Shown: positions 10,901-54,998 of the stretch, piece by piece
Layout of the letters: every line of letters starts with the position of its first letter
Numbering within the stretch: the first letter of the stretch is position 1
NCBI GenBank assembly: GCA_009784555.1
Contig: WRBO01000005.1
Location: 6,406 to 70,405, forward strand
DNA: 64,000 bases
Direction: 5' to 3'
Origin: Bacillota bacterium
GTDB taxonomy: Bacteria > Bacillota > Clostridia > Christensenellales > UBA1242
The notes under the pieces: model-generated
The model's input: only the letters and a program-made list of their open reading frames with translations
Database searches by the model: none
Told to the model about the DNA's origin: nothing
Translations under genes and position numbers: made by a program

Positions 10901-13496
10901 AGCCCAGGGTATCTACATGAACACTGCTGCCTGGCCAATTTGGGTTTATGTGAACATCTACATCGGATTCTGTTCCGCGGGCAAAGGTTAAGTCTAGACT
11001 GAAATCCACAAAGTTCCCTGGCAACGGTAGCCCCGCAAAATGCGAAACCGTCCCGCGGGAAAATAACGTTTCCCAATTTCGGTCGAATTCCGCACTGATT
11101 AACGGATTAATGACCTCGAGATATATTATTATCATGGTTGACGACAATGCCGACAAAACACGTGGGTTATGTGCATGCAGGTCAACTATCAACTGCATTG
11201 TGCCTTCTGTTCTTGGTGTAAAGGTGAAGTTTTCCGTATCAACATCCAATCCCGCGGTCGCCGTTAATGTTGCCCAAACAGACGCATGGGACGGTAATGC
11301 CGAGAGGTTCAATTGATATACACCATCAATGCGAAGGAAAACACGTTCGATTTGATTTACAATGCCAACCTGTTGCATTCGTGTTTCAAATACCTGGCCG
11401 CCCGTTACATTTTGGATGTTCATGCCCAGGCTGGCCAAACGCTCTTGAACCAATATACGGACATCAACGGACATGCCGCTGATATATTCTATTGTTACAC
11501 CGTGATGCACACCCAAGCTGACCTGGTTTAATAAATGCGCATACATAGGTTGCAGGAATCGCGGGTTAACCTCTAGCAGGAACCTCAACCGTCCATCTGG
11601 TTCAAAACCAGAAGGATGGTGTACAACAAACATTGGAATGCGCTCGACAACTATTTCCCCAACCATGATTGGGATAAAGGCACTCTCCCCCAAACGGTCG
11701 GCGAAATACGTTACATCCGCCGCGTATCCGATATCGGTACGGACAAAGAATTCAAACGCACCATTTACATAACCGCGCACAGGGAACAAAATGTCAATTG
11801 GGTTGCCCGCCGCATCCTCGATAGACATTTCCGAAACGGCATGCATCGCACGCAATGGAATGTCTCTGTAGGCCAAAGGCGTGCCATCTGGCCATGCCGC
11901 AACCGACCGAACACGTAAAATCAAATCATTTGATTCAATCAAATCCAATACATGCATGCTTGGACGCATTGACATCGAAAAGGTTGCATAATACGGAATG
12001 CCTTGGGAAAAGTTCAGCGGAGACATAATGATATCAAATGCGGGGTCATGCACAGGACGCGTAGACCACGTAATATCAAACATAAACCCAATATGCACGT
12101 TTGCATGTGCAGGTGAGTTAATTAATTCAAATGTTAATCGGTTGTTATATTGGTGGTGGTTTGTTGTGTTTATATTAATTTGGTCACGTAAGTTCACGTT
12201 AAAATGAAATCTGTCTGTACGTGTCGGGGAATAGAATGCCAACATTTGGTCTAACTCTGTTCCGTTGCGGTGGAATTCCAAATTCTTTTCACCATCGGGG
12301 GCCAGGTCATGGAATATATTTCTGACCTCTACCCTGATTTGAACAAATTCATGTAAATGTGTGTCCCGCGGACGATTAAACAATATAGGGGTGTCTTGGC
12401 CCACATTAACAACCGGAAACACCATTACGGTTACAAAGGTTTGGCCCAAGCCATTTGCCTCTAGACGGAAGATATCTTGACTTGGGGTATCCAAGTGCGG
12501 AAAAACAACCGTTTCATCAAAACCAACCAAACGGTAATGAAAGTTAACGGTATGTCCAGGGCCAAAGTCACCCGCAAAGTTCGGGCGAATATCCCATCCA
12601 TCAACGGCAATACGATAGTCAATGAAATTTGTGAACTGGTTCGCGAATTCACCCTCGGACGGCGCGTTCAAAACCAAACTGGCGAATGTATTTCCAAGGT
12701 TATCAATCCGTGTCGGTGCATTTTCATTTGTTAGTGTTATGTCGCCAAAAGGTGCAAAGATGTAAACAGGAAAATCCAACGTCGCCCCAGTACGTGTCAA
12801 TGTCGCACGCACAGTTACCGGCCCAGCCAACGATGTCCAAGGAACAACCAAACGTTGTCCATCAATATGTGTTCCGCGGTTTTGTCCGATGATTTGGTAT
12901 GTTACTTCATTTTCGGTCGTATTGAATGTCAGGTCACCAACCGTCTGGGTTGCAAAGAAATTAAAATCGCGGCCCGAAAATGGAACATATACTGGCGGTT
13001 CATCATATGCGCCGCGTACAATTCCAAAGCGTACATCTTCTGCCATATTCATACTACGGGCCGGAACATCTACACGCACATCCAAATACATTGTGCGACC
13101 GCCGCCGCCAGACAAAACACGAATACGTGTGCGACCACCATTAACCGCGGTTATCGTCACACGGTTTTGATTTCCGCTTGAACCCGTGACGGCCGCCGTT
13201 GCGACACTGGGGTCAAGTGAATGGACAAAGACTCTTTCCGCCGCACTGTTCGGCGCACCCTCTACCCTGATGGTTACATGTGATTGGGGAAAGTTCCCTC
13301 CCGTTGGACGAGCGATGCCGTTGTTGTCTTCTATGTTCAATGTGATAACAATATTTTGGGTGGATGCGCGCAGACGCATGTCGCCATATATATCACCACT
13401 GCCACCAGCCAGTATAATTCCCAAGACAGCAGCAAACACCAGAACCAGAAGTCCAGCCAGAATTAATTTGTTACGACGGCTTAGTATCTGTGCCAC
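1944..13496 (-). CDS. Giant (3850 aa) N-terminally membrane-anchored surface protein with many GLUG-type repeats
   Basis: Uninterrupted 11.5 kb ORF with a GTG start preceded by GGGGGA. N-terminal TM segment LILAGLLVLVFAAVLGIILAGG. A Big_2-like segment (VTITAVNGGRTRIRVL). Dozens of repeats of the form (V/A)GG(L/I/F)(V/A)G.N.G.I.N(S/A). No C-terminal anchor. Confidence 0.85.
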   Translation of the reverse strand: MAQILSRRNKLILAGLLVLVFAAVLGIILAGGSGDIYGDMRLRASTQNIVITLNIEDNNGIARPTGGNFPQSHVTIRVEGAPNSAAERVFVHSLDPSVATAAVTGSSGNQNRVTITAVNGGRTRIRVLSGGGGRTMYLDVRVDVPARSMNMAEDVRFGIVRGAYDEPPVYVPFSGRDFNFFATQTVGDLTFNTTENEVTYQIIGQNRGTHIDGQRLVVPWTSLAGPVTVRATLTRTGATLDFPVYIFAPFGDITLTNENAPTRIDNLGNTFASLVLNAPSEGEFANQFTNFIDYRIAVDGWDIRPNFAGDFGPGHTVNFHYRLVGFDETVVFPHLDTPSQDIFRLEANGLGQTFVTVMVFPVVNVGQDTPILFNRPRDTHLHEFVQIRVEVRNIFHDLAPDGEKNLEFHRNGTELDQMLAFYSPTRTDRFHFNVNLRDQININTTNHHQYNNRLTFELINSPAHANVHIGFMFDITWSTRPVHDPAFDIIMSPLNFSQGIPYYATFSMSMRPSMHVLDLIESNDLILRVRSVAAWPDGTPLAYRDIPLRAMHAVSEMSIEDAAGNPIDILFPVRGYVNGAFEFFVRTDIGYAADVTYFADRLGESAFIPIMVGEIVVERIPMFVVHHPSGFEPDGRLRFLLEVNPRFLQPMYAHLLNQVSLGVHHGVTIEYISGMSVDVRILVQERLASLGMNIQNVTGGQVFETRMQQVGIVNQIERVFLRIDGVYQLNLSALPSHASVWATLTATAGLDVDTENFTFTPRTEGTMQLIVDLHAHNPRVLSALSSTMIIIYLEVINPLISAEFDRNWETLFSRGTVSHFAGLPLPGNFVDFSLDLTFARGTESDVDVHINPNWPGSSVHVDTLGSRQYRIHGLTATSDFIFVAFDIHQTYTYAGGTFRMEFTFNAPMRFFVRVVDASTVQMINTLDIGNSLNMVITDGPATRAVRLNTFPANAHNPRIGFAFEQRNSDGSTTIYDENGMIITEVRDGAGNLIVSVSEAGVITAHRSNVGINVDLPVVLRIFAFDSIRRTNNGEGELLLPATYLRFSIFIFDQRSGEGQFMISNRDEFLLHFGYTFDRYVDLPSGRYRHYRHSGEVIDGYFRLVDNIDFHDVILQPINQFVGQFIGTRTYAVAGGDLSARYELQNMRFESATNWQTMSLVGVGHSAEENFGLFGRLGDWNGFGEIDHTRGLVDGIAFTNVLVNIMYNRSPITQYQEFYRTLNFGVVAGVNMGTITDVTVEVNFGQFTLSGHTDLNWGAIAGINMGYVTERYFLNVTGAMAVSFGSEQANHVAGARTVFNINLGGFVGRNMSNGTIRGRNAGGVLSDNVALNSEIALLIISAQNIVRNDVDKNVGGVVARNEGLVEEISTQNVLYNATRGLVGGLVGLNMGTVNSAYSTSAIYARGVLGGIVGRNTGTVRNSYFDFFINPVLREQLNAILTTFIPRTMLNQHLDWTNNPFYAGLIVGRDANINLANFTTEQAAHVPRTVIGGVVGINSGDIFHSFASSVFTNTTHTVMGIPYRGDIFIFGARGSNNVIVGGVIGVQENPRTEGQANGPGRRSRVEGVFSALSIHYMNGGERNSPIIGGLIGELHQTANVDVVAAYSYNYFRMNTHPQDAFALGGTNAMVISPKVGINRINNSNPTHNNTGVGFQYASFVLTYAILAPTQVDWVTATGAPAAPALIITENQPVGFNASTALPGGAMPGGSRTIEFIGARYGRAAVTGATGGNMSNWVAARSNISSMPATDEVFNADDFFVNFQNINVPIQNGQVGRLSEAAFTAAMGFDFPMIRQSEDYEMPLFIARPQHITFALASQEQLTERFTGARNNRGGFNYAIVNPSNLPHTSSLVIDGTRVNSVALMFTAGPVIPSAVTANRYYLDDLFSVEISPLIASRRMFISIEGGSGIAELGRNTVGGVPRYFLNLRRTGSFQVVAISTRTEEGQSVLGRLAVDVIPGVTTQTVSRDILGMIARRSMLTDDPNNFTHNFEVQKGTTFSLLAAVDNQTWQVEGSYIFESGAPRPYQNGSPIYFHEAPLNDEPIIFRFRPFISWGGNIYHLDSLVIEIEVEVYAGAIYLELFQDGTTIDGSTASVYSGRFVTDILPTVHRNVAIGSLTELQRAEQLLSLTNFAFSAEGTTHQMFGLPVAGTPNPEITRTVIEITENDRAFNLVFELHVRPIEVFTIYVQSPGGLVARDFGYREYNFDIYMRLEIREEVYNNFLASVDVSQYRPPVAIPHGISGTIHMAERSIDRAENELRPLLYDSADVEVVAQQLQSVNFQHYANTITVPGSISEFILPPNQPQSMNVYTERDGTGGILKVYAHPFYSGIDQFTLRSIPVNQIIGEIDGENVYKYWDIMFIQMVFNPYTGYFENYPGVPLVLGPDGMPVVPDTGAPGEILPETFAFHQVSTVRDTAGGRMFSWEGVYYIHTVLRERNEQANPTQITQGQVFHIEAEFITLGDWENPLTREFELFALDRPGLNFEFDNVPGRRASQAVGTTSTFTVNTTGVINVDWGSGAETEMTIFRGGSNIDPYQYVTLTHIPNTQSYQVTIAPSVNMVGATIFIEFSYELEQSGLILQMTTTLEIDVVLMRVDGLYLAGRRGNTIHMNTPSQYNVELAINASHHSGHDAPELAMMISNEIARVQYEINRDPRVEWTGRSATGGWMLNVNWDEVNEFYHNEVGPTSTNRDALNFFLGSSRTSGIKFVSPSVRASRTNVLSVRMSFELIGGLYQIRVATGMNITADFNVVSVPSSAEDNPVIIRTAQELRDAASIVDGHFILMPDDGVLTLNGWEPLEWRAASLDGNNTRIILNSFNIPEETTGPINIGLFSTVHHGSLIKNVNLVLPFFPASGRSDLRVDLTHLPQNATVRVGAFAGVNQGILTNIAVLSGGASVGTPNAPGFQEGQFTRNEDGNMVADFNRSNFDQSLVFPGLQGSARSRLAVFMANSTMDLRVGGLVGINMRAGNNYGVISNSRVLIDMFVGREGAVADETQTNVGQARVAGFAAQNDGFIVSSFFRDGNIINRAWPSSGAAFSWTAGFVAQNGQQGIVRGSYVMGATSGLASNGQVTRGVIRSTFATAGFVFQNAGLVEDGYVNILLPEGTFRSGFVENNTAQGVIRNSIVQNPNPGGDMGAYFVFARAPLAGGFLGTLTNNRFMNQPGFIATNDFADGARFRGFTNPIDINEFEGFSISAMYEDRNPNVWRMTPHGPRLVGADHIAVSIRVMGDTLLPTGHPEIIYHRSHAYGTRYNPIVIWTGDQFNRHIYLASGAEGRDRDFEQSAAQVRDDWEDNVFMGYMRLVSNISVRAATGGTATQGGLSEFGGVLHTYKVTFQGELDGNGLGITDISLVATEAVATGLRSVGLFSRLTYATVKNVNLSFVPSPGAEYSIAAASAPFVGGLAGIAVNSNIVDVNVINQTNHVNTRILGFNIVGGVVGVSVNFDYDTQTAGGSIVRTAHTYKIENVHSNVPVMTFVRHQAEHIDLTFASAIGGLTDLGYMQHDLTRLGIAGGVVGMVTHDVGNIIDRGLFMRDIDGNAVTNAHPMRADFTNVRMIGNFRNPNGNVGFGIVAEGEVVGSLIGVIGSEISVRGAEYLMNNTLAVTHNHLRAKFYAGGIVGINFGRLDGATVSLFGQMNLNIQSNAGARYIFFGTPAVSRTYGMFVGGIAGFNSGTINNATLDSPMTAEGTGGTHPIRTSQKMSVGGIVGENAGGTISNSRVERTILGGFMLGGVVGMNRNGGALINNHLRHTTGTGAYTIFNVTGAQGVNSIWGGQADGVQINETFRGTPEMMSAFGTGPIADGGRGSDMVTFTGGIVGYIQGADPIVMGGTRTNEIVINNRSIFEFGGARNRA

Positions 13497-17484: not shown

Positions 17485-18489
17485 ATGAATCTTCGTGAGT
17501 TGCCGATATTTGAATTGCGTACCATTGCACGTGCAATGAGTCTTCCGATTACCAATGACACCGAACGAGCCGAGCTTATTGCAACGATAAGCGCGCATGG
17601 TGTTTCGCCCGTTCCAATGCGGAAATCCGCATATGACGTGTTTTATGAGTTGCCGCCAGAAGAGCCAAAAGATGAGGCCAGCGCGTGTGTGAAAACGCCA
17701 AGCAGTCGGAGTAGTAGCCAATTACATGGCTATGTTCATATGAAGAGCGACGGAGCGGCAATTTTGCTTGCCCAAAACATGACTACACTTATCATATCTC
17801 CGATAATGGCAAGCACGCACAAGTTGGACAACGGAGATTGGATAGCGGCCACCGTTGCACACGACCCAACCAAGAACCGAAGCACAGTACGCGAAATTCG
17901 GGAGAAACATCCGACAGAGCTTTTCAAAAATCAGGAAGCCGTACGGACGAATCGCACAGTCGGACTAATGGGGACCAAAATCACATTGGGCAAGCGTGTG
18001 TTGGTGCTTTGTAACCGTACGCATGACCGCCCCGCCGATATATCAAAAGCCGCAATCCCGAACACACATAAAGTTGCCTTGGTTTTGGATGAGGGCGAGG
18101 ATATCGCCAAGGCCATCGAATGCATGGACGAGGTATTTGTTGCGCCTCCGTCTACCCTGGCGGTTAGGCAAATTCCGATGTGTTTGTTCGCCCTGTTTTC
18201 AGCCCAGCGTGCCGCGGCCGACGGAGCGGATGTTTTGTTATTTATCGATAACTTGCCGAAAATGGTGCGGCTTTACAACAAATGTATTGCGCCGAACGGC
18301 ACATATGACCCAGGCGCATTCAATGATGGAGCGGTTAACGATGTAAAGCACTTTATCCTGTCTGCGCGGGTTTTGGCCAGCGGCGGTTCGTTTACCCCTG
18401 TGGTGTATTTGAACACACCCGAGACACCGTATGACCAACATGTTTACAACGAATTCGCCGACCTGGCTAACTTTATCATCGAGAAATAG
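17485..18489 (+). CDS. Rho-like protein with Rho_N and cold-shock-like domains and a degenerate ATPase domain lacking Walker A
   Basis: SD AAGGAGG precedes the ATG. The N-terminus LRELPIFELRTIARAMSLP resembles the Rho N-terminal domain. The C-terminal half aligns by eye with the Rho RecA domain (LVLDEG versus LLIDER; LLFIDNLPKMVRLYN versus ILLDSITRLARAYN). The P-loop position reads LCNRTHDRP, and no GK[ST] occurs anywhere in the protein. Confidence 0.6.
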   Translation: MNLRELPIFELRTIARAMSLPITNDTERAELIATISAHGVSPVPMRKSAYDVFYELPPEEPKDEASACVKTPSSRSSSQLHGYVHMKSDGAAILLAQNMTTLIISPIMASTHKLDNGDWIAATVAHDPTKNRSTVREIREKHPTELFKNQEAVRTNRTVGLMGTKITLGKRVLVLCNRTHDRPADISKAAIPNTHKVALVLDEGEDIAKAIECMDEVFVAPPSTLAVRQIPMCLFALFSAQRAAADGADVLLFIDNLPKMVRLYNKCIAPNGTYDPGAFNDGAVNDVKHFILSARVLASGGSFTPVVYLNTPETPYDQHVYNEFADLANFIIEK

Positions 18490-18859
18490 CGTTTTGCCCG
18501 AGGCGAAGCCGTGTGATGCACCCGCAGGGTTAACATTATAGTTCGGGCCGAGGCCGCAGGCCGAGCGTTTGGCCCGAAGCGAAGCTTGGGGGGGGTTTTC
18601 TATTTCTTGTTTTTCGCTGGGGGGGGGTTCTCCAGTTGGAGGCGATATTTAATTTTCAATTTTCATTCATCCAAAAACATGGATGATGGCGAGGCGCGCC
18701 AGGTAAGTCTTTCCGCACATCGAGGACTCCCCCATATCTGGCGGATATAACACATCTGATTTATCCGCAGATGAAGGAAAGAGCTTGCCTAGGCAGCCGA
18801 TGCCTTTGCACCTTATAGTAACATGGGATTTTTGGGCGTCAAGGGGGTTGGTGACATTT
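18490..18859 (+). ncRNA. Structured repeat element, copy A (candidate novel ncRNA or structured repeat)
   Basis: The 5' half is near-identical to 38591-38745. The 3' half is homologous to the reverse complement of 42975-43190. Twin G tracts are G8 at 18588-18595 and G9 at 18619-18627. Conserved hairpins include CATCCA-aaaaca-TGGATG (18668-18685). A long helix pairs 18701-18714 with 18776-18790 and covaries with copy C. Confidence 0.5.
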
Positions 18860-19285
18860 TTAGTCGGATGTTACTTTTTCGAGGATGTCTTTGAAAGTTT
18901 CGATTTCTTGTGCAGTTACCCTGTTGACCCAAAACGGTGCCGCTTGCCTGTATTTCGATATTTTATCGTCAAAGTATGCCTGGCCCTTTGGTGTTAGAAT
19001 GATTTTGAAGTTCTTGCCGATGTTATCCGATTTGTCCCGTTGTACTATGCCGTTCCTTTCAAGGTCGGCTATGGTTCGTGAAACCAATCCTTTGTCCGTT
19101 GAGGTCATTTCGGCAAGTTCAGCCATCGAATAGCCTTTTCCGTCTTTGATTATTGGGACGATTACCCGTAACTGCCCCCTGGTGACTTCTTCACTTTCGA
19201 GAAGTTTATATGTACCCTCTATCCGTTTTATAAGTTTTTTAAGCCGTACAACAATATCCTCGGCCATTTCATACTTTGCTTTCAT
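18860..19285 (-). CDS. MarR family transcriptional regulator
   Basis: 141 aa winged-HTH pattern (YSMAELAEMTSTDKGLVSRTIADLERNGIVQRDKSD). It is the last gene of the ABC operon. Confidence 0.8.
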   Translation of the reverse strand: MKAKYEMAEDIVVRLKKLIKRIEGTYKLLESEEVTRGQLRVIVPIIKDGKGYSMAELAEMTSTDKGLVSRTIADLERNGIVQRDKSDNIGKNFKIILTPKGQAYFDDKISKYRQAAPFWVNRVTAQEIETFKDILEKVTSD

Positions 19286-20853: not shown

Positions 20854-20870
20854 TTTACTCCTTTTAATGC

Positions 20871-20926
20871 AATAGTTGACATGTCAACTATTGGACAGTA
20901 TATGCCCACAAAGTTGATATGTCAAC
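20871..20926 (-). promoter_or_regulatory. Promoter plus palindromic operators of the ABC-marR operon
   Basis: Minus strand reads TTGACA (20925-20920), 17 nt, then TATACT (20902-20897). A perfect 22-bp palindrome AATAGTTGACATGTCAACTATT (20871-20892) lies between the -10 and the SD. A second, imperfect palindrome GTTGATATGTCAAC (20913-20926) overlaps the -35. Confidence 0.6.
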
Positions 20927-20948: not shown

Positions 20949-23900
20949 TTATTTGACCCTCATGCGGTGACGCATTGTGAAGAATAGACCGACACCCACA
21001 ATTAAGAAGCCGACGACACCCACAATGACCATGATTGCAACCATGTTCAGACCCTCGCGGATGACGAATGATTCGGCGAAGATTGTAGCACCGCTGGCTA
21101 CCTCTAGCCTTATTTGATATGAGCCGACCTCGATAAATGGAAATCCCGCCAGGATGTTCGGTGAGCCCGCGTGCATGACGATTCGGTGAAATTCCTCTCC
21201 GTCACGTGTTAGTATCAGTTCCGAGTCGCCGAAGAGTTGGAAAATCAAATACGGGTTGTATCGGATTATGAATACGTCTGTGGTTGTGCTGCCGAATGGG
21301 TGGTTGCTCTGGATTACTGGTTGTTGCATTGGCATTATCATAATTGTAAACGACCGATAGATTGGTGGGCGGATATTGCCCTGGGCCACGCGCATTGTTA
21401 CGATGTATTGGCCACTGCGCCCTACGCCCGCGCGCAGGGATATTTGTGTCAGGTGTCCCTCGGGGAACAGGTGGCGTGCATCCGAACCGTTCAATGCCAC
21501 ACCCACGATTTCGATGTTTGGGGCGCCAGGGACGAAGAAACTCTCCATATGTTCGGTTGGGTTTACCAGTTGAACCATGAAGTCAATTCGCAGGCGGCCA
21601 GCAGGAGTCAAGTTATAAACGTATTCAACGGTAAAGCGATATAGCCCCGGGTCGGTGAAGTTCCAGAAGCGGCGTTCATGTTGACTGGTTGCCCGGAAGT
21701 CCTCTATTACCATGCCGTTACGTGTAACATGCATTTGCGAGATATACATGTGCAGGCCAGGCAAGCTGTTTGATGTGAATGGGATTTCCATCACGTTTAT
21801 ATTTATTTCGTTGTTGAACACCATTCCATCAATGACCGATTCCCCGTTTACCAAGATTGGTGGGCGGGTCAAGTTAATCAAGGTAAAGTGTTCGACCGTA
21901 TCCGTGTCTGTTGTGCCAGGGATGACATAGGTGAATATCCTGTGGTTTCCCGCCCAGTCCATAATTCGGAATGTAATCAATCCGTAATCGTGCGCGGACA
22001 GGCGCAATTCGTCCCCGACGAACAGACGTCCCACAGGGCGGCCGTTGAATGAATAATCGGCAAAATACAGGTTGCCAGGGTGTTGGTTGTGGCGGGCGCC
22101 CCCAGGTGTTTGCAGGGTTACAATCAGCCCAGCCGCGCCCAATTGGTTAAACAGAAGGTAATGCGGCACAGGCAGGCCCGCACCCTCGGCCGGGAAGGCG
22201 TTTGGACTCTCGACATTTATGGATACGTTTGATAACTCGCTGCTCCATATTGGTGTTACGGCCAGGTACATGCGACTGCCCGTTAGGTCGGATTCCAGGA
22301 TGTATATGTATGTAAAGACACTGTTCCCTATTATATCTTGGCCAGACAATTCGACCTGGGGGTCGTCCATGTTTATTACACGGCGCGGATAGTTCAATGA
22401 CGGCACGATTTCCAAGCGGTCTTGCCATTCTTCTTGGTTGTTTTCGACGACGATGAAATAGCTTGGGATACGGCGTTGTTGGAATGTGTTGCCGACGGCT
22501 ATGTTTAGAATGAATGGCTCGGGACTGGCAATTAATTGGGTACGGTCATAGCGCGGGTTTGATTCGCTCTCGGGTTCCCAATCCGCAAAGTCAGGGTTTT
22601 CGGTGTTAAAGAAGACCTGGTACGTTGTGTTGTCGACGTCCGTGATTGTGAATTCGTATGTTGAAACAGCCCATGCATCGTTCATTACGGTTATCACGTA
22701 TCGGCCCGCGTTCGTCAGGTTGAATCGTGTTTGACCGCGGCGCACGGTACGAGTAGTTGTCAGCAGGCGGCGGTTAGTTTCCGATTCGTCCAGTGTAGGG
22801 TCAAAGTTTGGGTTTGGGAATGTACGCGCGTATGTAATTGTAACGTTGAACAGGGTGCTTGGGTTGATGAAGCTGACGGATACTATGCCGTCGACCGAGC
22901 CCATTGCGATGTCCTCGGACACGTCCCCCCCGTTCAGGTTCGAGAATATCATTTCAGGCAGGTTGATATAAAACACCCATTCTTGGTCAAAGATTACGTG
23001 GCCCGTGCCACGGCTGACCAAGACTACCCGCCAATGTGATTGGGCGAAGGCGGAAGGCAGGCCAAAATGTACCGTCATCATATTTTCGTATGGGGTGAAT
23101 GTCATGTTTTCGGCACTGTTGATAAATTGGCCGTTGCGGTAAACACGTAGCTCGTGAACGTTCGAGGTAAAGGATATTTCCACGCCGCGTTCGTCACCCG
23201 TATGGTGCAGTAATCGGTTCTGTACAACGACCGGTTGTGTTCCACCCAGGAACGCAAAGCCAAATTCATTGCCCCAAATTCCGTTGTGTTCGGCGACGAC
23301 TTGGCGGCGGAATGGGTCGGTGACGGTTATGCGCAGTTCACGTGATGCCCCGTTTGGAATGATGACCTCGCCCGTGTGGGGGATGAATTCCTGGCTGACA
23401 TGTGTGCCGTCGAACATATCAAACAGGCCCAGGGTCATGAAGTTGAAACTGCGGAACATTGGGTGTAGTAGATGCCAGTTCACGATGGATACCGTGAGAG
23501 AACCGTTATCCCCCTCGGCCATTGCAATCATAGGCATCAGAGTATTGTTAGTAATTTGGAATACATCCACGTTCCATACATGAAAGCGGTTGTTTATTGT
23601 TAGGGTCATGACACCCTCGCCCAATGCGCCTATCCAACCGTTCAGAACATCGACCAAGTCGGCAGGGCGCGCGTTATTGAATACCATCGGCGTTTCGATA
23701 AAGTGATGGCCGCCCAAGGTTATTCCCGTTTGCGCGGTTTGATTAAATCGGCGGAAGACACGGTTTTCGTATCGAATTTCAAAGTAAGGGTTTTGGTTCC
23801 AGAACTCGGTCACATCATTTACGCGCAAGCCTTGGCCGAAGACACGAACCTGGTCCGCTATTAGGTTGTCGCCGTCAACCACGCCCGCCGTACCGATACG

Positions 23901-26900
23901 GTCGATGTATCCCAGTCCGCGTAGTTGGATAAAGTACTCGCGAGTGTTGCCGGCCTCGTCCCTTTCGGTTATTCGGAAGAAACGCGATTGACCCGGTTGC
24001 AATCCAACACGTTGGGCGAACGGTGCCCCACCGTATTCAAAGTGGATTTCACCCGTCATAGGGGTTAGGGCGGGTGTGACCTCTACATATGATATCGAGA
24101 AAGCCTCTAAATCTGGGTTCAGGATAGGGCGACTAAATATAAAATTATTTGGTACCGCATAGATAAACCTATCTTCGTTCAGGTCATTTGTGGTGAACCC
24201 CGCACGTTCGTTCCAGAGTCTGTCCAAGGCTTGGATATTTCGGAAGTTGTGTTGCGGCGGCGTATTGTCGATGACAATCGAGTGTGATATCGGCGGAACC
24301 ATCGGGTCATCGGTATAGAGGATGACGCCGAATACATCGTTCTCGGCCCATCCCATGTTGGTCAGCATGTATTCAACGCGCACCACCCCGCCGTCGACCG
24401 TTTGGGTCAACGATGGAACGTTTGTAATTGTTGGGTGGTTTGGGGTGTTTAATTGTCCGCGGGTGATGCGGCTGTTTGTTACGTCGGCGAAGAACCTGTT
24501 TGGGTCGGATTGGGTGTACACAAAGCGCAATGTTTCGCCCGTTTGTAATTGTGTCGAGCCCAATGAAACACGGTTAGTTCCGCGATAGAATGCACCTGGG
24601 CTGCCTCCTCTTTCGATTTCAAAGAGGATTTCACTCCTGTTTGGTTCGTTGATACGTTCGCCAAAGCCATAGAGTTGCCATCGCATACCGCCACTGCCGT
24701 CTGTGAATGATAGCCTGTACATTCCTGTGTCTGTGAACGGGATGGATGCGTTGTTTGCGTTACGGTCGCGCAGGGTTGTAAAATCACCGCCCGCGATATC
24801 CCGTTGTTGTACCACCAAATTCAAACGCAAGGATTGAAAATTAAAGGATGTTTGCGGAATACGCGCCCCGAATTCATTTGTGGTATAGAAGTGCAGTTGC
24901 ATGATGCTGGACCCGAAGGCGACCTCCTCTCCGTCCACAATCGCCGTGTGTCCGAACTTTGTTCCGAATGTTGGCATTCGCACGGATGCGGTCGAGTTTG
25001 TTTGCAACACGACATCGTGGCCAGGAACCATGCGGGTGTTATTTATTCTTTGAAAGTTTGTAATGTCAGCAGTTTTCAGGCCAAAGTCGATTTCAATCGC
25101 ACTGTCGAAAACCCCTGGGTTCGCGATAATTGGTGTATTATCAACGATAAAGAAATAGTTTCGTTCGATTTCGTCCAATCGGTCGGCGGGCACCGTGACC
25201 GGGTTAAATCGGCGGGTGATTACATAGACACCAGGCAAGGTTCCCTCGTTACGGTCGGCACGGTTGATTTCGCGATAAACCCAATGTTCGGCCAAGTTCG
25301 TGTTGGCGGGGCGTTGATACAAACGCTCGGTCGATGTGACATCGCGCGCGAACGGATAGTTCGGGTTGACGTGGCGGGTGCGGATGACCTCGTCATCCAC
25401 CGTTTCCTCTGTATAATAAAATCTTTGCCAATTTAATTCGTGGAATGCCATGTCGACCGTATCAACAACAAATTGGTTGTTCATTCCGCCGACGATAAAT
25501 TCACTCTGTAAAAATGCAAATGTCGCAAATTCGCGGTTGGAAATTCCGCCCGGGCGAACGACCGAGGCCGTTTCGCTCCATTCGTCGCTGGCCGCATCGA
25601 CCACCAGTTCGGGCACATCGTCCTCTAGGATTGTTCCACGGCTCATATCGAAATTCACGAAAACGTAATAGAACGATATGTTGCCCAGCGCGTCCTCGGT
25701 ACGGAAGATATAGAAATTTTCGCGGTTCAGATGAACATAGTGGCGGTTGACGTTCGCGGGAACCTCTATGTCCCAATCGGTGCCCTCCAATGCCAAATGT
25801 TCCCCCAATGGGCGGTTGCGGTCAAATACCGTTTGGAAACTGGTTTCCGCCATTTCTAAACTTATCCCTACGTTATCGATTGGAATTGCGAAACCATAGC
25901 GTGTTTCCCATTCCTCGCGCGGGAAGAGCGTTCCGATTGAATTTACACGCGGTACGATGGCCGTGCCGAACATGCCCGCGTTCGCCAATATTTCATAAAG
26001 GGTTTCGGTCGTGTACAATGTTGTGCCAAGGCCGCGGACATGGAAATCCAAGGCGGCGGACATCGCAACGTCCGAGCCGATGATTTTATTTTGTCCGAAC
26101 CCGACCCACGTTGCCTCGGTCGTCATGTTCATGTGGTTCAAATCGTCAACCATCGGGTTTTGGGCAAAGCCCTGGGTTGAGTTATCAATTACCAATGTGA
26201 AAATAGACGTATTTCCCGCCATGTCCATGATGTGGAATATGTACAATCCCGCCGCACGGAAAGTAATCGGTAAACGATATCCGATATGGGTGTTGTTAAC
26301 GTCGCGTATCATAACGGGGCGCAGTTGCAATGGCTCGGCCCCCGTGCCCATCATCGTATATGGCGTGGCCAAGTTCGCCGCGGTATGGTCATCCGTTTGC
26401 AGGAAACTGGTAAACCTGTTTTCAAATGCGTGAAAGAAAACCTGGGCACGGTGAAAACTGACACCGCTTGGTTTTAATCCCCAACGCAATCCGATTTCAA
26501 AGTTGATGTCACCCGCACCCCCCCATATGGCAAAGTCAGGGTGTGTGTTTGGAACGACGAATTCGCGCCCGCCAACGTTTTCCAATTGGAATGAATTGAC
26601 CTTGGAGTTATCGACGATGACACTGAATTGCGCGCTGGCCTGGCCCAATGCCCCGTAAAAAACACGGAAGGTATATATTCCGTCGAAATAACGGCCCTCG
26701 GCATCCAATTGAGTTGCCAGTTGCGTTGCGAAATTTTCCAAATCAAAAGACGGGATTGTGCGAATATGTTGTCCGTCAAAGGTCGTGATGACCAATTCGA
26801 TACGCGGGCGCATCATAAATGGTGACAATTCGGAATACGCCGTTGCCCCGTCCATGAATACGAGGAATGAGCCACTTAACGTAACGCGGCGGTCAACAAA

Positions 26901-31703: not shown

Positions 31704-31761
31704 TATTATAAGGAAAACCCCGCACAATACCAAATAAAAAATTTACACCAACGAAACAAAA

Positions 31762-31778
31762 ACCACCCGCATGGGGTG
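31762..31778 (-). terminator. Intrinsic terminator after the VirB2-like gene
   Basis: Hairpin CCACCC-catgc-GGGTGG followed by UUUUUGUUU on the minus strand. An A-run on the other side makes it potentially bidirectional. Confidence 0.6.
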
Positions 31779-31800
31779 GTTTTGATTATGGCTTTGCGTT

Positions 31801-38590: not shown

Positions 38591-38997
38591 CATTTGGCCC
38601 GAGGGCGTTAGCCGTGTGATGCGCACGCAGTGCAAACCGAATAGTTCGGGCCGAGGCCGCAGGCCGAGCGTTTGGCCCGAAGGCAAAGCCCTGGGGGGGG
38701 GGTTTTACTTTTGCGTTTTCCGTTGGGGGGGTTTTCTAGGGGGCCTCCTTGCAGGGAAAACTAACTTTTCGGGCCGAAGCCGAGCGGAGCGAGGAGCGTT
38801 GTACAGTCACGATTGGTTGTGATGCATTGTGCACACTTGCCAGGAGAAATGACCGCCATGTTTATTTAGTTTTATAAAAGCACACAGGGCAGGCCAATTT
38901 CTCTGGTCCTCGGGTGCGAAAAGTTGTTGTTCCCTCGTCGGCCCTGTACCTTACAGTAACATGGATTGATTTTTATTCAAGGGTGTTACTGACAATT
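38591..38997 (+). ncRNA. Structured repeat element, copy B
   Basis: 38591-38745 matches 18494-18640, including an identical 42-nt block ATAGTTCGGGCCGAGGCCGCAGGCCGAGCGTTTGGCCCGAAG. Twin G tracts are G10 (38693-38702) and G7 (38725-38731). The middle is unique, closed by a long-range helix ACAGGGC...GCCCTGT (38884-38890 with 38941-38947). The shared 3' tail is CCTTACAGTAACATGG...AAGGGTGTTACTGACAATTTTA. Confidence 0.5.
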
Positions 38998-39306: not shown

Positions 39307-39435
39307 ATGGATGAAGTCATTAGGGAGTTGTTGGAGATACTGCGCGGCTATATGGAGGATATGGCGACATTGCGAACACGGATGAACGAAACAATTAGGC
39401 GTATCGCCGAGTTAGTTGCCGACGAGGGCAAATAA
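39307..39435 (+). CDS. 42-aa helical microprotein, paralogue 1
   Basis: Encodes MDEVIRELLEILRGYMEDMATLRTRMNETIRRIAELVADEGK, with SD AAAGGGGG. It differs from 43539-43667 at 7 of 129 nt: 6 synonymous changes and one Asp/Glu change. It is too short for the supplied ORF track. Confidence 0.7.
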   Translation: MDEVIRELLEILRGYMEDMATLRTRMNETIRRIAELVADEGK

Positions 39436-39454
39436 CTTTTCGCATCCGAGGACA

Positions 39455-39492
39455 AGAAAAAATGGCCTGCCCCGCAAGCCATCTTTTTTTAT
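39455..39492. terminator. Bidirectional intrinsic terminator
   Basis: AAAAAATGGC-ctgccccgcaa-GCCATCTTTTTTT lies between the convergent microprotein and permease genes. The stem is short. Confidence 0.45.
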
Positions 39493-42950: not shown

Positions 42951-43252
42951 AAAATGTCAGTAACCCCCTTTACATATATGAGTTCCATGTTACGTTAGGG
43001 TGCAAAGGCGTCGGCTGCCTACGAGATGCTGTTTTTAGTCTTCTGCGGATACACTGTGGATGTTGCTAACTGTAGGTGTACCAGTCCTCGAAGACGAAAA
43101 ACACATCTCGGGCGCGCCTCGCCACATCCATGTTTTTGGATGAATGAAAATTGAAAACTGAATATCCTGCACACCCTGCGGCCCCTTGGAAAACCCCCCC
43201 CAGTTAAAAACGCAAATTCAATAACCCCCCCCAAGGGAATTTACTGACATTT
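42951..43252 (-). ncRNA. Structured repeat element, copy C (inverted relative to A and B)
   Basis: The reverse complement aligns with 18583-18859. Shared blocks are the twin G8 tracts (C8 on + at 43194-43201 and 43225-43232), TTTTCAATTTTCATTCATCCAAAAACATGGATG, GGCGAGGCGCGCC, TCGAGGACT, TATCCGCAGA, TAGGCAGCCGA(T/C)GCCTTTGCACC and GTAACATGG. It is bracketed by inverted repeats at 42951-42970 and 43233-43253. Confidence 0.5.
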
Positions 43253-43459
43253 TTAGATATCGGTGCGGCCAAAAAGGTAATCGGTTGAAACGCCAAAGAA
43301 ATTGGCGAGTTTGTCGACAGTTTCAAATTTTGGTTGCGTTTCATTTTGTTCGTATCTGGCGATTGCGGCGTGGCTGACACCCACTATCTTCCCTACCTCG
43401 CGTAAGGATAACTTTCTTTCGGTACGTAATTCTCGTAATCGTTCGCCAAATATTTTCAT
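43253..43459 (-). CDS. XRE family HTH transcriptional regulator (68 aa)
   Basis: MKIFGERLRELRTERKLSLREVGKIVGVSHAAIARYEQNETQPKFETVDKLANFFGVSTDYLFG is a classic HTH_3 sequence. The track ORF extends to 43489. Confidence 0.9.
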   Translation of the reverse strand: MKIFGERLRELRTERKLSLREVGKIVGVSHAAIARYEQNETQPKFETVDKLANFFGVSTDYLFGRTDI

Positions 43460-53039: not shown

Positions 53040-53064
53040 CCCCGTATCCACAGCGGGGTTTTTT
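53040..53064 (+). terminator. Intrinsic terminator
   Basis: CCCCG-tatccaca-GCGGGG followed by T6. The same 19-nt hairpin recurs inverted at 63651-63669. Confidence 0.7.
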
Positions 53065-53110
53065 CATTAGTTCGTGCGCCCTGCGCACATTTATGACACG
53101 TGGTCCGATG
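53059..53110 (+). repeat. About 50-nt direct repeat R1 (3' flank of uvrC)
   Basis: TTTTCATTAGTTCGTGCGCCCTGCGCACATTTATGACACGTGGTCCG aligns with 54793-54842. Its hairpin is GTGCGC-cct-GCGCAC (53074-53088). Confidence 0.7.
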
Positions 53111-53140
53111 TAGGTTTTTGTATACAGCAATAATATCCCC

Positions 53141-54799
53141 CTACTTCAGCCCGGGGATTGTTCGTTTGGCGCGGAGGTTTCGGTGGAAGGTGTTGGCGAA
53201 GCGGTGGGCCTCGTCCCGAACCCGTTGGAGGAGGCGGAGGGAGTAGCTGCGTTTGGAGAGTACGAGCGGAGTACTCTCCCCCGGTTTGAAGATTTCTTCG
53301 TTTTCCTTTGCCAGGGCGATGAAGTTGATTTCAGAGTTTCCCGCGACATCCATAACCGAGGATAGTTGGCCCTTGCCCCCGTCGATGACAATTAGGTCGG
53401 GGGCGATGCCGAATGAGATGTCGGGGGTTCCGATGCGGGCGAGGCGGCGGGTGATGACCTCTTGCATAGAGAGGAAGTCGTTGTTACCCATGCCGTGTTT
53501 GATTTTGAAGCGGCGGTAGAGTTTTTTCTCGGCCACGCCGTTTATGAAGACGACCATTGATGCGACCATATCCGTGCCGTCCGTGTGCGAGATGTCGTAA
53601 CATTCGATTTTTTTCGGCGGGTGGGTAAGGCCGAGTACAGTGCCCAGTTCGTCCACCGCGCCCACCGTGAATTGTTCGCGGAATTTGATTTTTTCAATGG
53701 ATGTGTCGATGTATTCATCCGCGTTGGTTTTCGCCATGTCGAGGAGTTGACGTTTAAGCGCGACCTTTGGGTTGAAGATGGTACAGCCGAGGGCGACAGC
53801 AACTTCCGTCATCGGAAATTCCGCGACGATTTGTTCGGGCACCACGTTTTGTTGATAATATTGCATTACGAAGCCAGAGAGCATGTCTTCCTCTGACTGT
53901 ACCCCCGCATGTTGTTCCGAGAAGTTTTGTATCCCGATTAATTTGCCCGCACGTACGGAGAGTACCGACACAACGAACACGTCCCCGCGGATTGCGTATG
54001 AGAAGACATCCGCGTTCAGGTCGCGCGCGACGTGGGTTATCGTGCGGTCACGCAATTTATCGAGGAAGTTCATACCGTTACGATAGCGGATTGCAATTTC
54101 AAATTGTTCAAGGGCGGCCGCGTTTTCCATTTTTGATTGGAGTTTTTCGCGTGCGCCGAATTCCCGTTCCCCGCGCAAAAAAGATTTAACATCGTCGATT
54201 ATTTTTAAGCATTCTTCGCGCGTTACCCGTTTGGCACAAGGGGCCAAGCACCGCCCGATTTGATGGTTTATGCAGGGTGTTTTTTTCGCAAATTCGACTT
54301 TGGAACATGTGCGTAATGGAAAGATGTCGAGAAGAGTGTCGAGTAGTTCGGATGCCCAGATGCCGTTGAAGTATGGCCCGAAGTATTTGCCGCCTTTTGT
54401 TAGTTTGCGGGTGACCTCTAGATACGGCCAGTCGCCGTCAGTTACCTTTATATATGGAAAGGTTTTGCTGTCTTTTAATAATATATTGTAGTGGGGTTGG
54501 TGTTTTTTGACCAAGTTGGCCTCTAGCCCCAGGGCGTCGTTTTCCGTTTTGGTGATGAAGTAGTCGAAGTCGCGCACCCGTTCCAGCATTGCGGTTACTT
54601 TTGCATCGTGACTGCCGCTCTTGAAGTAACTGCCCAATCTTGCGCGCAGGGCCTTGGCCTTGCCAATGTAGATGATGTGCCCCGCCCCATCGCGCATGAG
54701 GTAGACCCCAGGTTTTGCGGGGACGAGGGCGAGTTTTTCGTGGATTGGCCCTTGGGGGGGGTTATTGATTTTTGATTTTTCACTGGGGGGGGTTTCCAT
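53141..54799 (-). CDS. uvrC: Excinuclease ABC subunit C
   Basis: GIY-YIG domain (PGVYLMRDGAGHIIYIGKAKALRARLGSYF), a UVR domain and a C-terminal (HhH)2. The only plausible starts are the ATG at 54799 (METPPSEKSKINNPPQG...) or upstream to 54871. Either way both C8 tracts fall inside the coding sequence. Confidence 0.9.
   Translation of the reverse strand: METPPSEKSKINNPPQGPIHEKLALVPAKPGVYLMRDGAGHIIYIGKAKALRARLGSYFKSGSHDAKVTAMLERVRDFDYFITKTENDALGLEANLVKKHQPHYNILLKDSKTFPYIKVTDGDWPYLEVTRKLTKGGKYFGPYFNGIWASELLDTLLDIFPLRTCSKVEFAKKTPCINHQIGRCLAPCAKRVTREECLKIIDDVKSFLRGEREFGAREKLQSKMENAAALEQFEIAIRYRNGMNFLDKLRDRTITHVARDLNADVFSYAIRGDVFVVSVLSVRAGKLIGIQNFSEQHAGVQSEEDMLSGFVMQYYQQNVVPEQIVAEFPMTEVAVALGCTIFNPKVALKRQLLDMAKTNADEYIDTSIEKIKFREQFTVGAVDELGTVLGLTHPPKKIECYDISHTDGTDMVASMVVFINGVAEKKLYRRFKIKHGMGNNDFLSMQEVITRRLARIGTPDISFGIAPDLIVIDGGKGQLSSVMDVAGNSEINFIALAKENEEIFKPGESTPLVLSKRSYSLRLLQRVRDEAHRFANTFHRNLRAKRTIPGLK
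54749..54795 (+). repeat. Twin-G8 core motif, copy D (antisense to the uvrC 5' coding region)
   Basis: CCCTTGGGGGGGGTTATTGATTTTTGATTTTTCACTGGGGGGGGTTT, with G8 at 54754-54761 and 54785-54792. It is nearly identical to the reverse complement of 43191-43237. Confidence 0.75.
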
Positions 54800-54842
54800 T
54801 AATCCGTGGGCTGTGCCCACATTTATAACACGTGGTCCGTGG
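54793..54842 (+). repeat. About 50-nt direct repeat R2 (5' end of uvrC)
   Basis: TTTCCATTAATCCGTGGGCTGTGCCCACATTTATAACACGTGGTCCG. Its hairpin GTGGGC-tgt-GCCCAC (54806-54820) carries compensatory changes relative to R1. Confidence 0.7.
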
Positions 54843-54998
54843 TTTGTTGAGTCTTGCACCTTTTTCATCACTTTACCATATCATGGTTTTTTTCATAGTC
54901 AAGAGAGTTCCTGACACTTTTTGAAGAATTGAAACATGTTGTAAATCCCGCCTTGAATTGATATACTATGAGGTAATTGTTGAAGGAGATTTTTTTAC

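What the first reader, a model, noticed from the sequence alone, without database searches (positions are those of the whole stretch)
18490..18859. Recurrent structured element whose helices covary between copies: candidate undescribed ncRNA family (copy A)
Three intergenic loci share a mosaic of conserved blocks separated by divergent stretches: 18490-18859 (+), 38591-38997 (+) and 42951-43252 (-). In several places the divergent stretches keep base-pairing while changing sequence. (1) Immediately after the conserved GGCGAGGCGCGCC, copy A has AGGTAAG-TCTTTCC (18701-18714), which pairs with GGAAAGA-g-CTTGCCT (18776-18790). At the homologous position copy C has unrelated sequence: CGAGATG-TGTTTTT-c-GTCTTC (rc of 43090-43110) pairs with GAAGAC-t-AAAAACA-g-CATCTCG (rc of 43022-43043). 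(2) The hairpin ACCC-GCA-GGGT in A (18520-18530) corresponds to GCAC-GCA-GTGC in B (38623-38633). (3) Invariant hairpins are CATCCA-aaaaca-TGGATG (18668-18685) and AGGCA-gccga-TGCCT. The T:G pair in helix (1) of copy A is a G-U wobble only on the strand quoted. This argues for an RNA and fixes its orientation. I recognise none of the standard RNAs (tmRNA, RNase P, SRP, 6S, T-box) and no adjacent RT, transposase or Cas gene. Every copy ends next to the stop codon of a small HTH regulator: MarR, XRE, XRE.
Basis: seen in the sequence. Interest (0 to 1): 0.8.

Follow-up and report, generated by a model that had tools for sequence, protein, structure and literature searches.

The report
Modular intergenic repeat carrying a promoter
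The "new RNA" is one copy of a patchwork DNA repeat scattered through the genome of an uncultured gut Firmicute: its hairpins are really conserved, but it behaves like known bacterial interspersed repeats that carry promoters, not like a single new RNA gene.

Summary
The repeated blocks are real: A-B BLAST E=7e-28, A-C E=9e-27. The long helix does covary: 111 of 111 cells are paired, 8 pairs changed on both sides, and 0 of 500 shuffles reach this. No Rfam family matches.

The three loci are not three copies of one RNA. Copy B lacks the structured core, and a covariance model of that core finds only A, C and two metagenome copies. B's centre is instead a copy of the 3' region of a neighbouring 42-aa gene.

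The elements are mosaics of portable modules:
- an SD-like run, often followed by ATG;
- one of at least three unrelated hairpin cores;
- an "H" hairpin found in either orientation;
- two G8/C8 runs 31-32 nt apart;
- a GC-rich hairpin.

A fourth copy supplies the promoter, leader and start codon of uvrC. Ten more copies lie in metagenome contigs of the same lineage. Assemblies break or recombine inside the element.

The G-U argument for strand does not hold.

Best reading: a lineage-specific interspersed mosaic repeat, analogous to Neisseria REP2, pneumococcal BOX and Correia elements. An sRNA role for the A/C core is not excluded.

The parts
18490..18537 (.). Copy A, end module shared only with B (38593-38640). 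It includes the small hairpin ACCC-GCA-GGGT at 18520-18530.
18538..18585 (.). Copy A, GC-rich hairpin module TTCGGGCC..GGCC-GCA-GGCC..GGCCCGAA. It is 100% identical in A, L091 and L094, and 42/42 identical in B.
18585..18630 (.). Copy A, G8-N23-G9 module (C-runs on the promoter strand). It is also present at 38691-38736, 43191-43237 and 54751-54796.
18668..18685 (.). Copy A, small hairpin CATCCA-aaaaca-TGGATG.
   Evidence: helix 1, invariant stem
18688..18804 (.). Copy A, A/C-type core: a 117-nt imperfect rod hairpin. GGCGAGGCGCGCC pairs with GGCAGCCGATGCC at the base.
18815..18842 (-). Copy A, sigma-70-like promoter TTGACG-16-TACTAT with TG extended -10. It fires leftwards into the element. 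The predicted start is about 18806-18810 on the - strand.
18843..18859 (-). Copy A, terminal block AAAATGTCACCAACCCCC. It directly follows the MarR stop codon (18860-18862) and marks the repeat boundary.
38591..38997 (-). Copy B: promoter block (-10 at 38953-38958, -35 at 38975-38980), then a B-type core, C-runs, GC hairpin and end module. The core is homologous to the 3' end and 3'UTR of the 42-aa gene (38887-38942 is an inverted copy of 39418-39472).
42951..43253 (+). Copy C: promoter block (-35 at 42969-42974, -10 at 42991-42996, + strand), A/C-type rod 43007-43123, small hairpin 43125-43142, C-runs 43191-43237. An inverted copy of the 13-nt terminus (AAAATGTCAGTAA) lies at 43240-43253, next to the XRE stop codon.
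54749..54920 (-). Copy D: promoter block (-35 at 54897-54902, -10 at 54875-54880), H module 54793-54846, C-runs 54751-54796. The uvrC reading frame starts inside it.
53049..53116 (.). Lone H module directly after an intrinsic terminator, between convergent genes.
   Evidence: (D6)
39418..39472 (+). 3' end of the 42-aa gene plus the start of its 3'UTR. This is the source-like sequence of the B-type core.

Best explanation
Copy A is one member of a lineage-specific family of interspersed, modular intergenic repeats. It is not a free-standing RNA gene of one conserved design.

Shown:
- Each copy is a patchwork of short modules.
- One end is always the block AAAATGTCAG(Y)AACCCCCTT(G/T)AC-N12-CCATGnTAC..T.
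- After it comes a purine-rich SD-like run, with ATG in about half the copies.
- Then comes one of at least three unrelated hairpin-forming cores.
- An optional H hairpin follows.
- Two C8 runs lie 31-32 nt apart.
- An optional GC-rich hairpin closes the element.
- Hairpin stems in the A/C core and in H are kept by compensatory changes.
- Copies sit at gene ends, between convergent genes, or in front of genes.
- One copy contains the uvrC start codon.
- Independent assemblies break or change partner inside the element.

Inferred:
- The terminal block is a sigma-A-type promoter with extended -10 that fires into the element. Copy A would then give an RNA of roughly 300 nt on the - strand, non-coding and ending against the convergent gene.
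- The family arose by duplication and recombination of a promoter-plus-UTR cassette, such as the one belonging to the neighbouring XRE/42-aa gene pair, and not by a dedicated transposase.
- The hairpins are kept because they act on whatever transcript crosses them, from either side, as stabiliser, insulator or terminator-like structures.
- In some places the module has been co-opted as a ready-made promoter, leader and start codon.
For: - Modularity and shuffling. The module census and the copy listing show this. H is reversed relative to the promoter block in L094 and stands alone at 53049. L092 and L093 share a flank and promoter block but carry different cores after the -10.
- B core. It matches the 3'UTR of the 42-aa gene (E=5e-11; z=23). 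It does not match the A/C core.
- Promoter. TTGACG-16-TACTAT with TG. All 4 window copies keep -35, TG, T1A2 and T6 at fixed spacing while the spacers differ.
- Covariation. A/C rod: 8 double changes, 0 of 500 shuffles. H hairpin: AU, CG and GC at one pair, 97% of cells paired.
- Both strands fold about equally well, as expected for a palindromic DNA unit.
- Repeat behaviour. The ENA and Logan contigs end inside C. JGI contig L102 is 100% identical for 1399 nt, then continues into another promoter block and another locus. L096 starts at a promoter block.
- uvrC. ORF residue 43 aligns to residue 5 of solved UvrC. The only in-frame start upstream lies in the element.
- No Rfam, phage or plasmid match.
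- No transposase, recombinase or RT among 50 ORFs scanned against Pfam, 44 of them from the window.
- Such promoter+RBS+ATG repeats without TIRs are known (REP2, Borrelia IR; PMC3184786).
Against: - There is no transcript data, so promoter activity and RNA ends are predictions.
- The nine scan-derived metagenome copies were found with a pattern built on the promoter block. Its conservation there is therefore partly imposed.
- All copies come from one sparsely sampled lineage. No empty sites or orthologous comparisons are available, and the copy number per genome is unknown.
- The very clean covariation of the A/C rod, together with conserved unpaired islands (GAGGACT, TATCCGCAG), is also what a functional RNA would show.
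- The adjacency to small HTH regulators (A, B, C, L092/L093, L098) is unexplained by a purely 'selfish repeat' view.
Confidence: 0.55

Rival explanations
1. The A/C-type units (A, C, L098, L102) are genuine small-RNA genes. Each would have its own promoter, a 117-nt rod-shaped RNA with conserved internal-loop residues, and an unstructured tail with two C8 runs that could pair with G-rich ribosome-binding sites or load Rho. The shared modules would be just a common promoter and terminator kit.
For: - Conserved promoter.
- Significant covariation, with sequence islands conserved in loops.
- In A, L096, L098 and L099 the promoter points at no gene.
- No Rfam match.
- The C-rich, G-poor tail reaches C/G of 5.2 in L098, and 9-11 in the SD-ATG type (L091, L096, L099). 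The background 95th percentile is 4.3.
Against: - Only 3 distinct sequences exist.
- No intrinsic terminator is predicted.
- The strand is not resolved.
- C/G enrichment is unexceptional in A, B, C and D (2.6-3.8).
- The same modules occur without the core and in reversed order.
- The 5' third of A shows no excess structure.
Confidence: 0.2
2. The element is a true MITE: a non-autonomous derivative of an IS element, moved by a transposase encoded elsewhere. Its ends would be AAAATGTCAGTAA...TTACTGACATTTT.
For: - Copy C has a perfect 13-nt terminal inverted repeat, with 5'-TG...CA-3' inside it.
- One boundary is sharp in all copies.
- Ends are conserved while the interior varies.
- The size is 200-400 bp.
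- Copies are 100% identical over 77-120 nt at different loci.
Against: - Only C has the second repeat; L098 keeps 5 nt of it.
- No target-site duplication is visible at C.
- No transposase is present among the ORFs scanned against Pfam.
- Module order and orientation vary, which transposition does not explain.
Confidence: 0.1
3. Copy C is an invertible promoter switch. The 13-nt inverted repeats at 42951-42963 and 43241-43253 would let the segment flip. The promoter would then read either antisense into the XRE gene (the state seen here) or towards spmA-spmB.
For: - Perfect inverted repeats flank a 277-bp segment with a promoter near one end.
- Relative to the homologous XRE genes, C is inverted compared with B and L098.
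Against: - No recombinase was found among the window ORFs scanned.
- The other copies lack the second repeat.
- Contigs from other assemblies break at 43011-43121, inside the core and not at the repeats. All show the same orientation.
Confidence: 0.05
4. The element is a type I toxin-antitoxin-like locus. A small hydrophobic peptide would be encoded on the promoter strand, its mRNA locked in the long hairpin, with an antisense RNA from the other strand.
For: - In L102, an AGGAGG-N5-ATG start is in frame with the 42-codon ORF of C. This gives MFVFSAAYEMLFLVFCGYTV...RRRK (51 aa).
- Promoter-like hexamers overlap on both strands.
- The locus is multi-copy.
Against: - A and L098 have TAG and TAA stops in that frame, and a 2-nt indel relative to C.
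- The peptides of other copies are unrelated and not hydrophobic.
- Searches with the pseudo-ORFs found nothing.
Confidence: 0.05
5. The element is a cis-regulatory leader (riboswitch-like) on the reader's strand, controlling the downstream gene.
Against: In A, B, L096, L098 and L099 there is no downstream gene on that strand. No Rfam riboswitch or T-box signal was found.
Confidence: 0.03

Closest known systems
Neisseria REP2 repeats and Borrelia IR-A/IR-B (Morelle et al. 2003; reviewed in PMC3184786)
   Same: - Intergenic repeats of about 120-180 bp with no terminal inverted repeats.
- Internal stem-loops.
[quoted passage not shown]
- They are thought to derive from a duplicated upstream region plus 5'UTR.
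- Here: promoter block, SD-like run, ATG in about half the copies, and the uvrC start inside copy D.
   Different: - No sequence relationship, and a different phylum.
- These elements are longer (200-400 bp) and far more modular.
- Most copies here do not precede a gene.
- The G8/C8 pair and the 117-nt rod have no counterpart.
Pneumococcal BOX elements, with RUP and SPRITE (Croucher et al. 2011, PMC3049150)
   Same: - Modular build from sub-units in variable number.
- Extensive secondary structure.
- Restricted to one species group.
- Spurious ORFs on both strands.
- Thought to be parasitic repeats that affect co-transcribed genes.
- SPRITE resembles a terminator, much as the G-run/H junction here resembles the real terminator at 53037-53064 (D6).
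   Different: - No sequence similarity.
- The BOX order A-B(n)-C is fixed, whereas here order and orientation vary.
- BOX elements are not defined by an internal promoter.
Correia elements (CREE) of Neisseria
   Same: Small repeats with terminal inverted repeats that carry functional promoters and generate small transcripts (PMC3184786). Copy C has a 13-nt terminal inverted repeat.
   Different: Correia elements have 26-bp TIRs in all copies and a TA duplication (stated from general knowledge). Here only one copy has both ends, and no duplication is seen.
REP/BIME of enterobacteria and pseudomonads
   Same: - GC-rich imperfect palindromes at gene ends and between convergent genes.
- Assembled into mosaics with other motifs.
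- Stems kept by compensatory change.
- The GC-rich hairpin module at 18538-18585 is REP-like in size and place.
   Different: - No GTAG or CGTC head tetranucleotide (PMC3733652 describes these tags).
- No alternating REP pairs.
- No RAYT gene was seen.
Bacillus cereus group bcr repeats (for example bcr5, 310 bp, group B)
   Same: Firmicute interspersed repeats of a few hundred bp, some with conserved predicted RNA structure (table in PMC3184786).
   Different: No sequence similarity was tested or expected. bcr1 has TIRs and a TTTAT duplication (stated from general knowledge).

Membership tests
Any Rfam 15 RNA family | Covariance-model score at or above the family's gathering threshold | tested here: not met
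   No hit in the whole window. None at E<=10 in 18400-18950. None at E<=1 in 38500-43400 apart from a chance snoRNA match inside the XRE gene. Only tRNAs in 8 related loci.
   CM R1 of the A/C core scores 207, 200, 172 and 135 bits on A, L098, C and L102. It finds nothing in B at E<=10. Local alignment of A or C against B gives z<2.3.
   111 of 111 cells paired, 8 pairs with double changes, 0 of 500 shuffles, slid controls at most 1. Caveat: only 3 sequences, and the alignment was fitted to the model.
   There are 2 G-U cells, both in copy A. Energies favour different strands in different copies. The promoter is on the opposite strand. No terminator is predicted on either strand.
MITE | Terminal inverted repeats at both ends of every copy | tested here: not met
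   Only copy C has both (42951-42963 and 43241-43253). A, B and D have one end only.
MITE | Target-site duplication | tested here: not met
   The flanks of C (…GATATCT / ATTGCC…) show no direct repeat.
MITE | Parent IS element or transposase with the same ends | not testable with these tools
   None was found among the ORFs scanned against Pfam. The rest of the genome is not available.
MITE | Small, non-coding, multi-copy | tested here: met
   The elements are 170-410 bp. There are 4 copies plus 1 fragment in 64 kb, and ten more in metagenome contigs: nine from the pattern scan plus L102. The ORFs are not conserved.
REP/BIME | 20-40 bp GC-rich palindrome with a GTAG or CGTC head; pairs in alternating orientation | tested here: not met
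   The GC-rich module TTCGGGCCGAGGCCGCAGGCCGAGCGTTTGGCCCGAA has no such head and occurs once per element.
REP2-type repeat (promoter + RBS + ATG, no TIR) | Promoter, ribosome-binding site and ATG inside the repeat | tested here: met
   The promoter consensus is present in all 13 pattern-matching copies. A canonical SD plus ATG is present in L091, L092, L095, L096, L097, L099 and L102. These are sequence predictions only.
REP2-type repeat (promoter + RBS + ATG, no TIR) | [quoted passage not shown] | tested here: inconclusive
   This holds for D (uvrC) and loosely for L092. It does not hold for A, B, L096, L098 or L099.
REP2-type repeat (promoter + RBS + ATG, no TIR) | Sequence homology to Neisseria REP2 | not tested
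   No REP2 sequence was at hand. Homology across phyla is not expected, so only an analogy is claimed.
Invertible promoter (inverton) | Both orientations present in a population; a nearby or dedicated invertase | tested here: not met
   Three other assemblies show the same orientation. No recombinase was found among the window ORFs scanned.
Type I toxin-antitoxin | Conserved small hydrophobic ORF with a start signal | tested here: not met
   The ORF is intact only in C and L102. A and L098 have stops and a frameshift.

The most novel reading that the evidence does not exclude
The A/C-type units, and perhaps the whole family, may be autonomous mini transcription units wired to the neighbouring small XRE regulators.

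The promoter's -35 sits in a TGTCA-N10-TGAC palindrome. This resembles the TGTCA-N9-TGACA sites crowded in the XRE-C control region.

Each unit would release a rod-shaped RNA with two C8 seeds. That RNA would act in trans, for example on G-rich ribosome-binding sites, or as an RNA partner of the XRE/42-aa gene pairs. This would be an undescribed regulatory RNA class that spreads as a repeat.
Probability: 0.12. Interest if true: 0.6.

Novelty: new member of a known kind. Interest (0 to 1): 0.3.

Why it matters
If the reading is right, the element is a fresh example, in a barely sampled gut Firmicute lineage, of how bacteria recycle promoter-plus-UTR cassettes as portable repeats. These repeats can donate promoters, leaders and even start codons to housekeeping genes such as uvrC. 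They also fragment metagenome assemblies.

The case is a useful caution as well. Clean helix covariation between intragenomic repeat copies does not by itself identify an RNA gene or its strand. The element does not open a new question unless the A/C core proves to be an expressed trans-acting RNA.

Tried and rejected
- **G8...G8 pattern scans.** Scans of viral contigs (inspected) and of 185,579 species genomes (checked by BLAST) returned only homopolymer noise and contig ends.
- **blastn of copy A against phage and plasmid collections.** No match.
- **Promoter-block pattern in viral contigs.** None found.
- **Protein-database tricks.** The neighbouring 334-aa protein has only itself and one 41% relative. 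A translated pseudo-ORF across four modules has no hit. The 42-aa protein hits only itself, its paralogue and a repeat protein. No orthologous or empty sites could therefore be compared.
- **Strand assignment by fold energy or G-U counts.** Contradictory between copies.
- **Rho-loading (C>G) signature.** Exceptional only in the SD-ATG subtype and L098, and ordinary in A-D.
- **Homology of the A/C rod to the 42-aa gene's 3'UTR.** Weak: z is at most 4.2 in one pairing and about 0 in the others. It is not claimed.
- **Small-protein readings.** The G-run as a Gly/Phe-rich peptide, the C-run as prolines, the MLYQIH... ORF and the L102 51-aa ORF were all considered. Frames differ between copies and stops occur.
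- **Extra 'GTTACTGACATTTT'-like sites at 20040 and 33899.** These lie in coding sequence and are chance matches.
- **Terminal 5'-TG..CA-3' with Tn7/Mu-type or IS200/IS605-type ends.** No subterminal hairpins or repeated binding sites consistent with these families were found.

Full report
**1. What is at the coordinates**

Window 18490-18859 is the whole spacer between two convergent genes. On the left is a 334-aa gene of unknown function that ends at 18489. On the right is a MarR-family gene on the minus strand, with its stop codon at 18860-18862.

- 18492-18631 matches 38593-38737 (80.7%, E=7e-28).
- 18585-18860 matches 43235-42951 (70.3% over 293 nt, E=9e-27).
- 18807-18865 matches 38945-39003.

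- A fourth, shorter copy (D) lies at 54749-54920 in front of uvrC.
- A lone fragment lies at 53049-53116.

**2. Known RNA families**

Rfam 15 finds nothing at curated thresholds in the window. It finds nothing at E<=10 around A. Nothing relevant appears at E<=1 across B and C, and only tRNAs appear in eight related loci. Phage and plasmid collections have no similar DNA.

**3. The structured part**

The right half of A (18640-18815) folds into a small hairpin (CATCCA/TGGATG) plus a 117-nt imperfect rod. The base of the rod is GGCGAGGCGCGCC paired with GGCAGCCGATGCC.

C folds the same way with a different helix sequence.

I built a covariance model from A, L098 and C and re-aligned the copies to it.
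- All 111 cells pair.
- Eight pairs changed on both sides.
- No shuffle out of 500 reaches this.
- Sliding the partners by 1-3 columns gives at most one such pair.

The covariation claim therefore stands. The caveats are that there are only three sequences and that the alignment was fitted to the model.

The left third of A (18486-18640) has no excess structure (z=+0.3 and +0.7).

**4. B is not a copy of that RNA**

The model finds A, L098, C and L102 (207-135 bits). It finds nothing in B at E<=10. Local alignment of the A or C core to B gives z<2.3.

B's centre is instead homologous to the 3' end and 3'UTR of the 42-aa gene next door:
- 38887-38942 is an inverted copy of 39418-39472 (87.5%, E=5e-11).
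- Comparing the whole regions gives z=23.

The 42-aa gene is real. Its two copies, beginning at 39307 and at 43539, differ by six synonymous changes and one non-synonymous change.

**5. A conserved promoter on the other strand**

The scan tool reports it for A as TTGACG-16-TACTAT with TG.

In the four window copies the key positions and the spacing are kept while the spacer sequence differs. This is the pattern expected of a working promoter. It remains a prediction.

The block is also the sharp boundary of the repeat. In A, B, C's inverted terminus and L094, the flanking gene's TAA runs straight into AAATGTCAG.

**6. More copies, and modularity**

A pattern built on the promoter block found nine contigs in one scan of JGI metagenomes. 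All come from three samples of one accession series. A neighbouring sample of that series (Ga0123356) is labelled Emb289P3, a label used in a study of higher-termite guts. The termite-gut origin is an inference.

One contig, L096, overlaps the window's left edge and begins at a promoter block.

The copies are mosaics. They combine the following parts:
- the promoter block;
- a purine-rich SD-like run 10-14 nt after the -10, with a canonical SD plus ATG in L091, L092, L095, L096, L097, L099 and L102;
- one of at least three unrelated centres: A/C type, B type, or a C-rich SD-ATG type;
- an optional H module, CCACGGACCACGTGTTATAAATGTG(R)GC...GC(Y)CACGGATTAATGGAAA;
- two C8 runs 31-32 nt apart;
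- an optional GC-rich hairpin, which is 100% identical in A, L091 and L094.

The H hairpin itself covaries, showing AU, CG and GC at one pair with 97% of cells paired. H is reversed relative to the promoter block in L094 and stands alone at 53049.

L092 and L093 share the same flank and promoter block but carry different centres directly after the -10.

ORFs that start at the element's ATG are unrelated between copies or run on by chance.

**7. Repeat behaviour in assemblies**

Other assemblies of the same locus end inside copy C. The ENA contig ends at window 43121 and the Logan contig at 43025.

JGI contig L102 is 100% identical to window 44409-43011. It then continues into a different promoter block and a different gene. 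This is either recombination between copies or a repeat-induced mis-join. Either way, a near-identical C-type core exists elsewhere in the population.

**8. Context**

The window is ordinary chromosome. It carries atpG, metK, spmA/B, a PSP1-domain gene, holB-like, ksgA, tatD, greA, pfk, uvrC, ftsH and mnmE. It also carries a VirD4/TraG-like gene, a T4SS pilin gene and two giant ORFs. I scanned 50 ORFs against Pfam, 44 of them from the window. None is a transposase, recombinase, reverse transcriptase or Cas protein.

The promoter points at a convergent gene in A, L096, L098 and L099. It points at a co-directional gene that has its own promoter in B and L092. It points into uvrC in D.

In D, ORF residue 43 aligns with residue 5 of solved UvrC N-terminal domains. 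The only in-frame start codon upstream is the element's ATGGAAACCCCCCCC. The element therefore supplies the start and about 14 extra residues.

Small HTH regulators abut A (MarR), B, C, L098 (XRE) and L092/L093 (XRE). Relative to the XRE gene, C is inverted compared with B and L098. C alone has the 13-nt terminus at both ends.

**9. Strand**

- The two G-U cells are both in copy A.
- They favour the other strand in C (-59.1 against -63.0) and in L098 (-54.5 against -64.1).

A palindromic unit folds on both strands, so the strand is unresolved by structure.

**10. Interpretation**

The evidence fits a lineage-specific interspersed mosaic repeat. The closest analogues are:
- Neisseria REP2 and Borrelia IR repeats, which have promoter, RBS, ATG and stem-loops, lack TIRs, and are thought to descend from a duplicated upstream region plus UTR (PMC3184786);
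- pneumococcal BOX, which is modular, structured and produces spurious ORFs (PMC3049150);
- Correia elements, which carry promoters.

The element fails the MITE tests because TIRs occur in one copy only and there is no target duplication. It also fails the REP tests because it has no GTAG or CGTC head.

The rival that the A/C units are true sRNA genes keeps about 0.2 probability. The covariation is clean, loop islands are conserved, and the promoter often faces no gene.

Readings as a type I toxin, an inverton or a riboswitch are weakly supported or contradicted.

**11. Limits**

All copies come from one sparsely sampled lineage. The NCBI record is 'MAG: Firmicutes bacterium', locus tag FWE38_02080. 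The neighbour protein's closest relative is 41% identical. There are no orthologous sites, no transcript data and no whole genome. The nine scan-derived metagenome copies were ascertained through the promoter block.

Noticed in passing
53141-54871 (- strand), especially 54746-54871: The uvrC reading frame has no ATG, GTG or TTG between the element-borne ATG (METPPSEKSKINNPPQGP...) and the conserved N-terminus. ORF residue 43 aligns to residue 5 of solved UvrC. The repeat therefore appears to donate the start codon and about 14 extra residues, encoded by the two C8 runs.
   Followed up: partly
38998-39451 and 43253-43683: There is a duplicated two-gene module: a 68-71 aa XRE regulator divergent from a 42-aa helical protein. 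The 42-aa genes are 93.8% identical in DNA, with 6 synonymous changes and 1 non-synonymous change. The protein has no relatives in two very large protein libraries, except a repeat unit in one 2377-aa protein (P0005). L098 and L092 carry analogous XRE plus small-ORF pairs.
   Followed up: partly
43461-43540: This is the densest cluster of TGTCA/TGACA in the window: 5 in 80 nt, including two TGTCA-N9-TGACA. It lies between XRE-C and its 42-aa partner and is a likely operator set. The repeat's promoter block has TGTCA-N10-TGAC over its -35. The XRE-B region instead has two TGAGAT-N3-ATCTCA palindromes (39222-39275).
   Followed up: partly
L102 1399-1475 (JGI Ga0136643_10095457) versus window 43011: This contig is identical to the window for 1399 nt. 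It then switches inside copy C to another promoter block and another gene, which creates an AGGAGG-ATG start in frame with a 42-codon ORF of the C core. It is either a structural variant or a repeat-induced chimera.
   Followed up: partly
53024-53064 and 63644-63684: The same bidirectional terminator hairpin (CCCCG..CGGGG with A and T runs) occurs at two loci in opposite orientation. At 53049 its 3' arm aligns with the second G-run of copy D. This hints that the G-runs descend from terminator arms.
   Followed up: no
1944-13496 (-) and 20949-28637 (-): Two giant ORFs of 3850 aa and 2562 aa have no Pfam family on record.
   Followed up: no
29679-32148 (-): A VirD4/TraG-type coupling protein gene and a T4SS pilin gene sit next to atpG and metK. 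This may be a remnant of a conjugative element inside otherwise housekeeping DNA.
   Followed up: no
58020-59166: A run of tandem paralogous small genes with signal-peptide-like starts (MKKFLIGLAIV...) is marked by direct repeats of 65-100 nt at 72-85% identity. It lies upstream of a split subtilase gene (59119-61496).
   Followed up: no
20870-20893: A perfect 24-nt palindrome lies between the ABC-transporter ATPase gene and the giant ORF.
   Followed up: no
L091 2188-2673, L095 2384-2662, L099 1424-3769: Three copies of the SD-ATG subtype sit divergently upstream of paralogous large secreted or lipoprotein-like genes. These genes share part of their own upstream region, so in these cases the repeat may have spread together with a gene family.
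   Followed up: no
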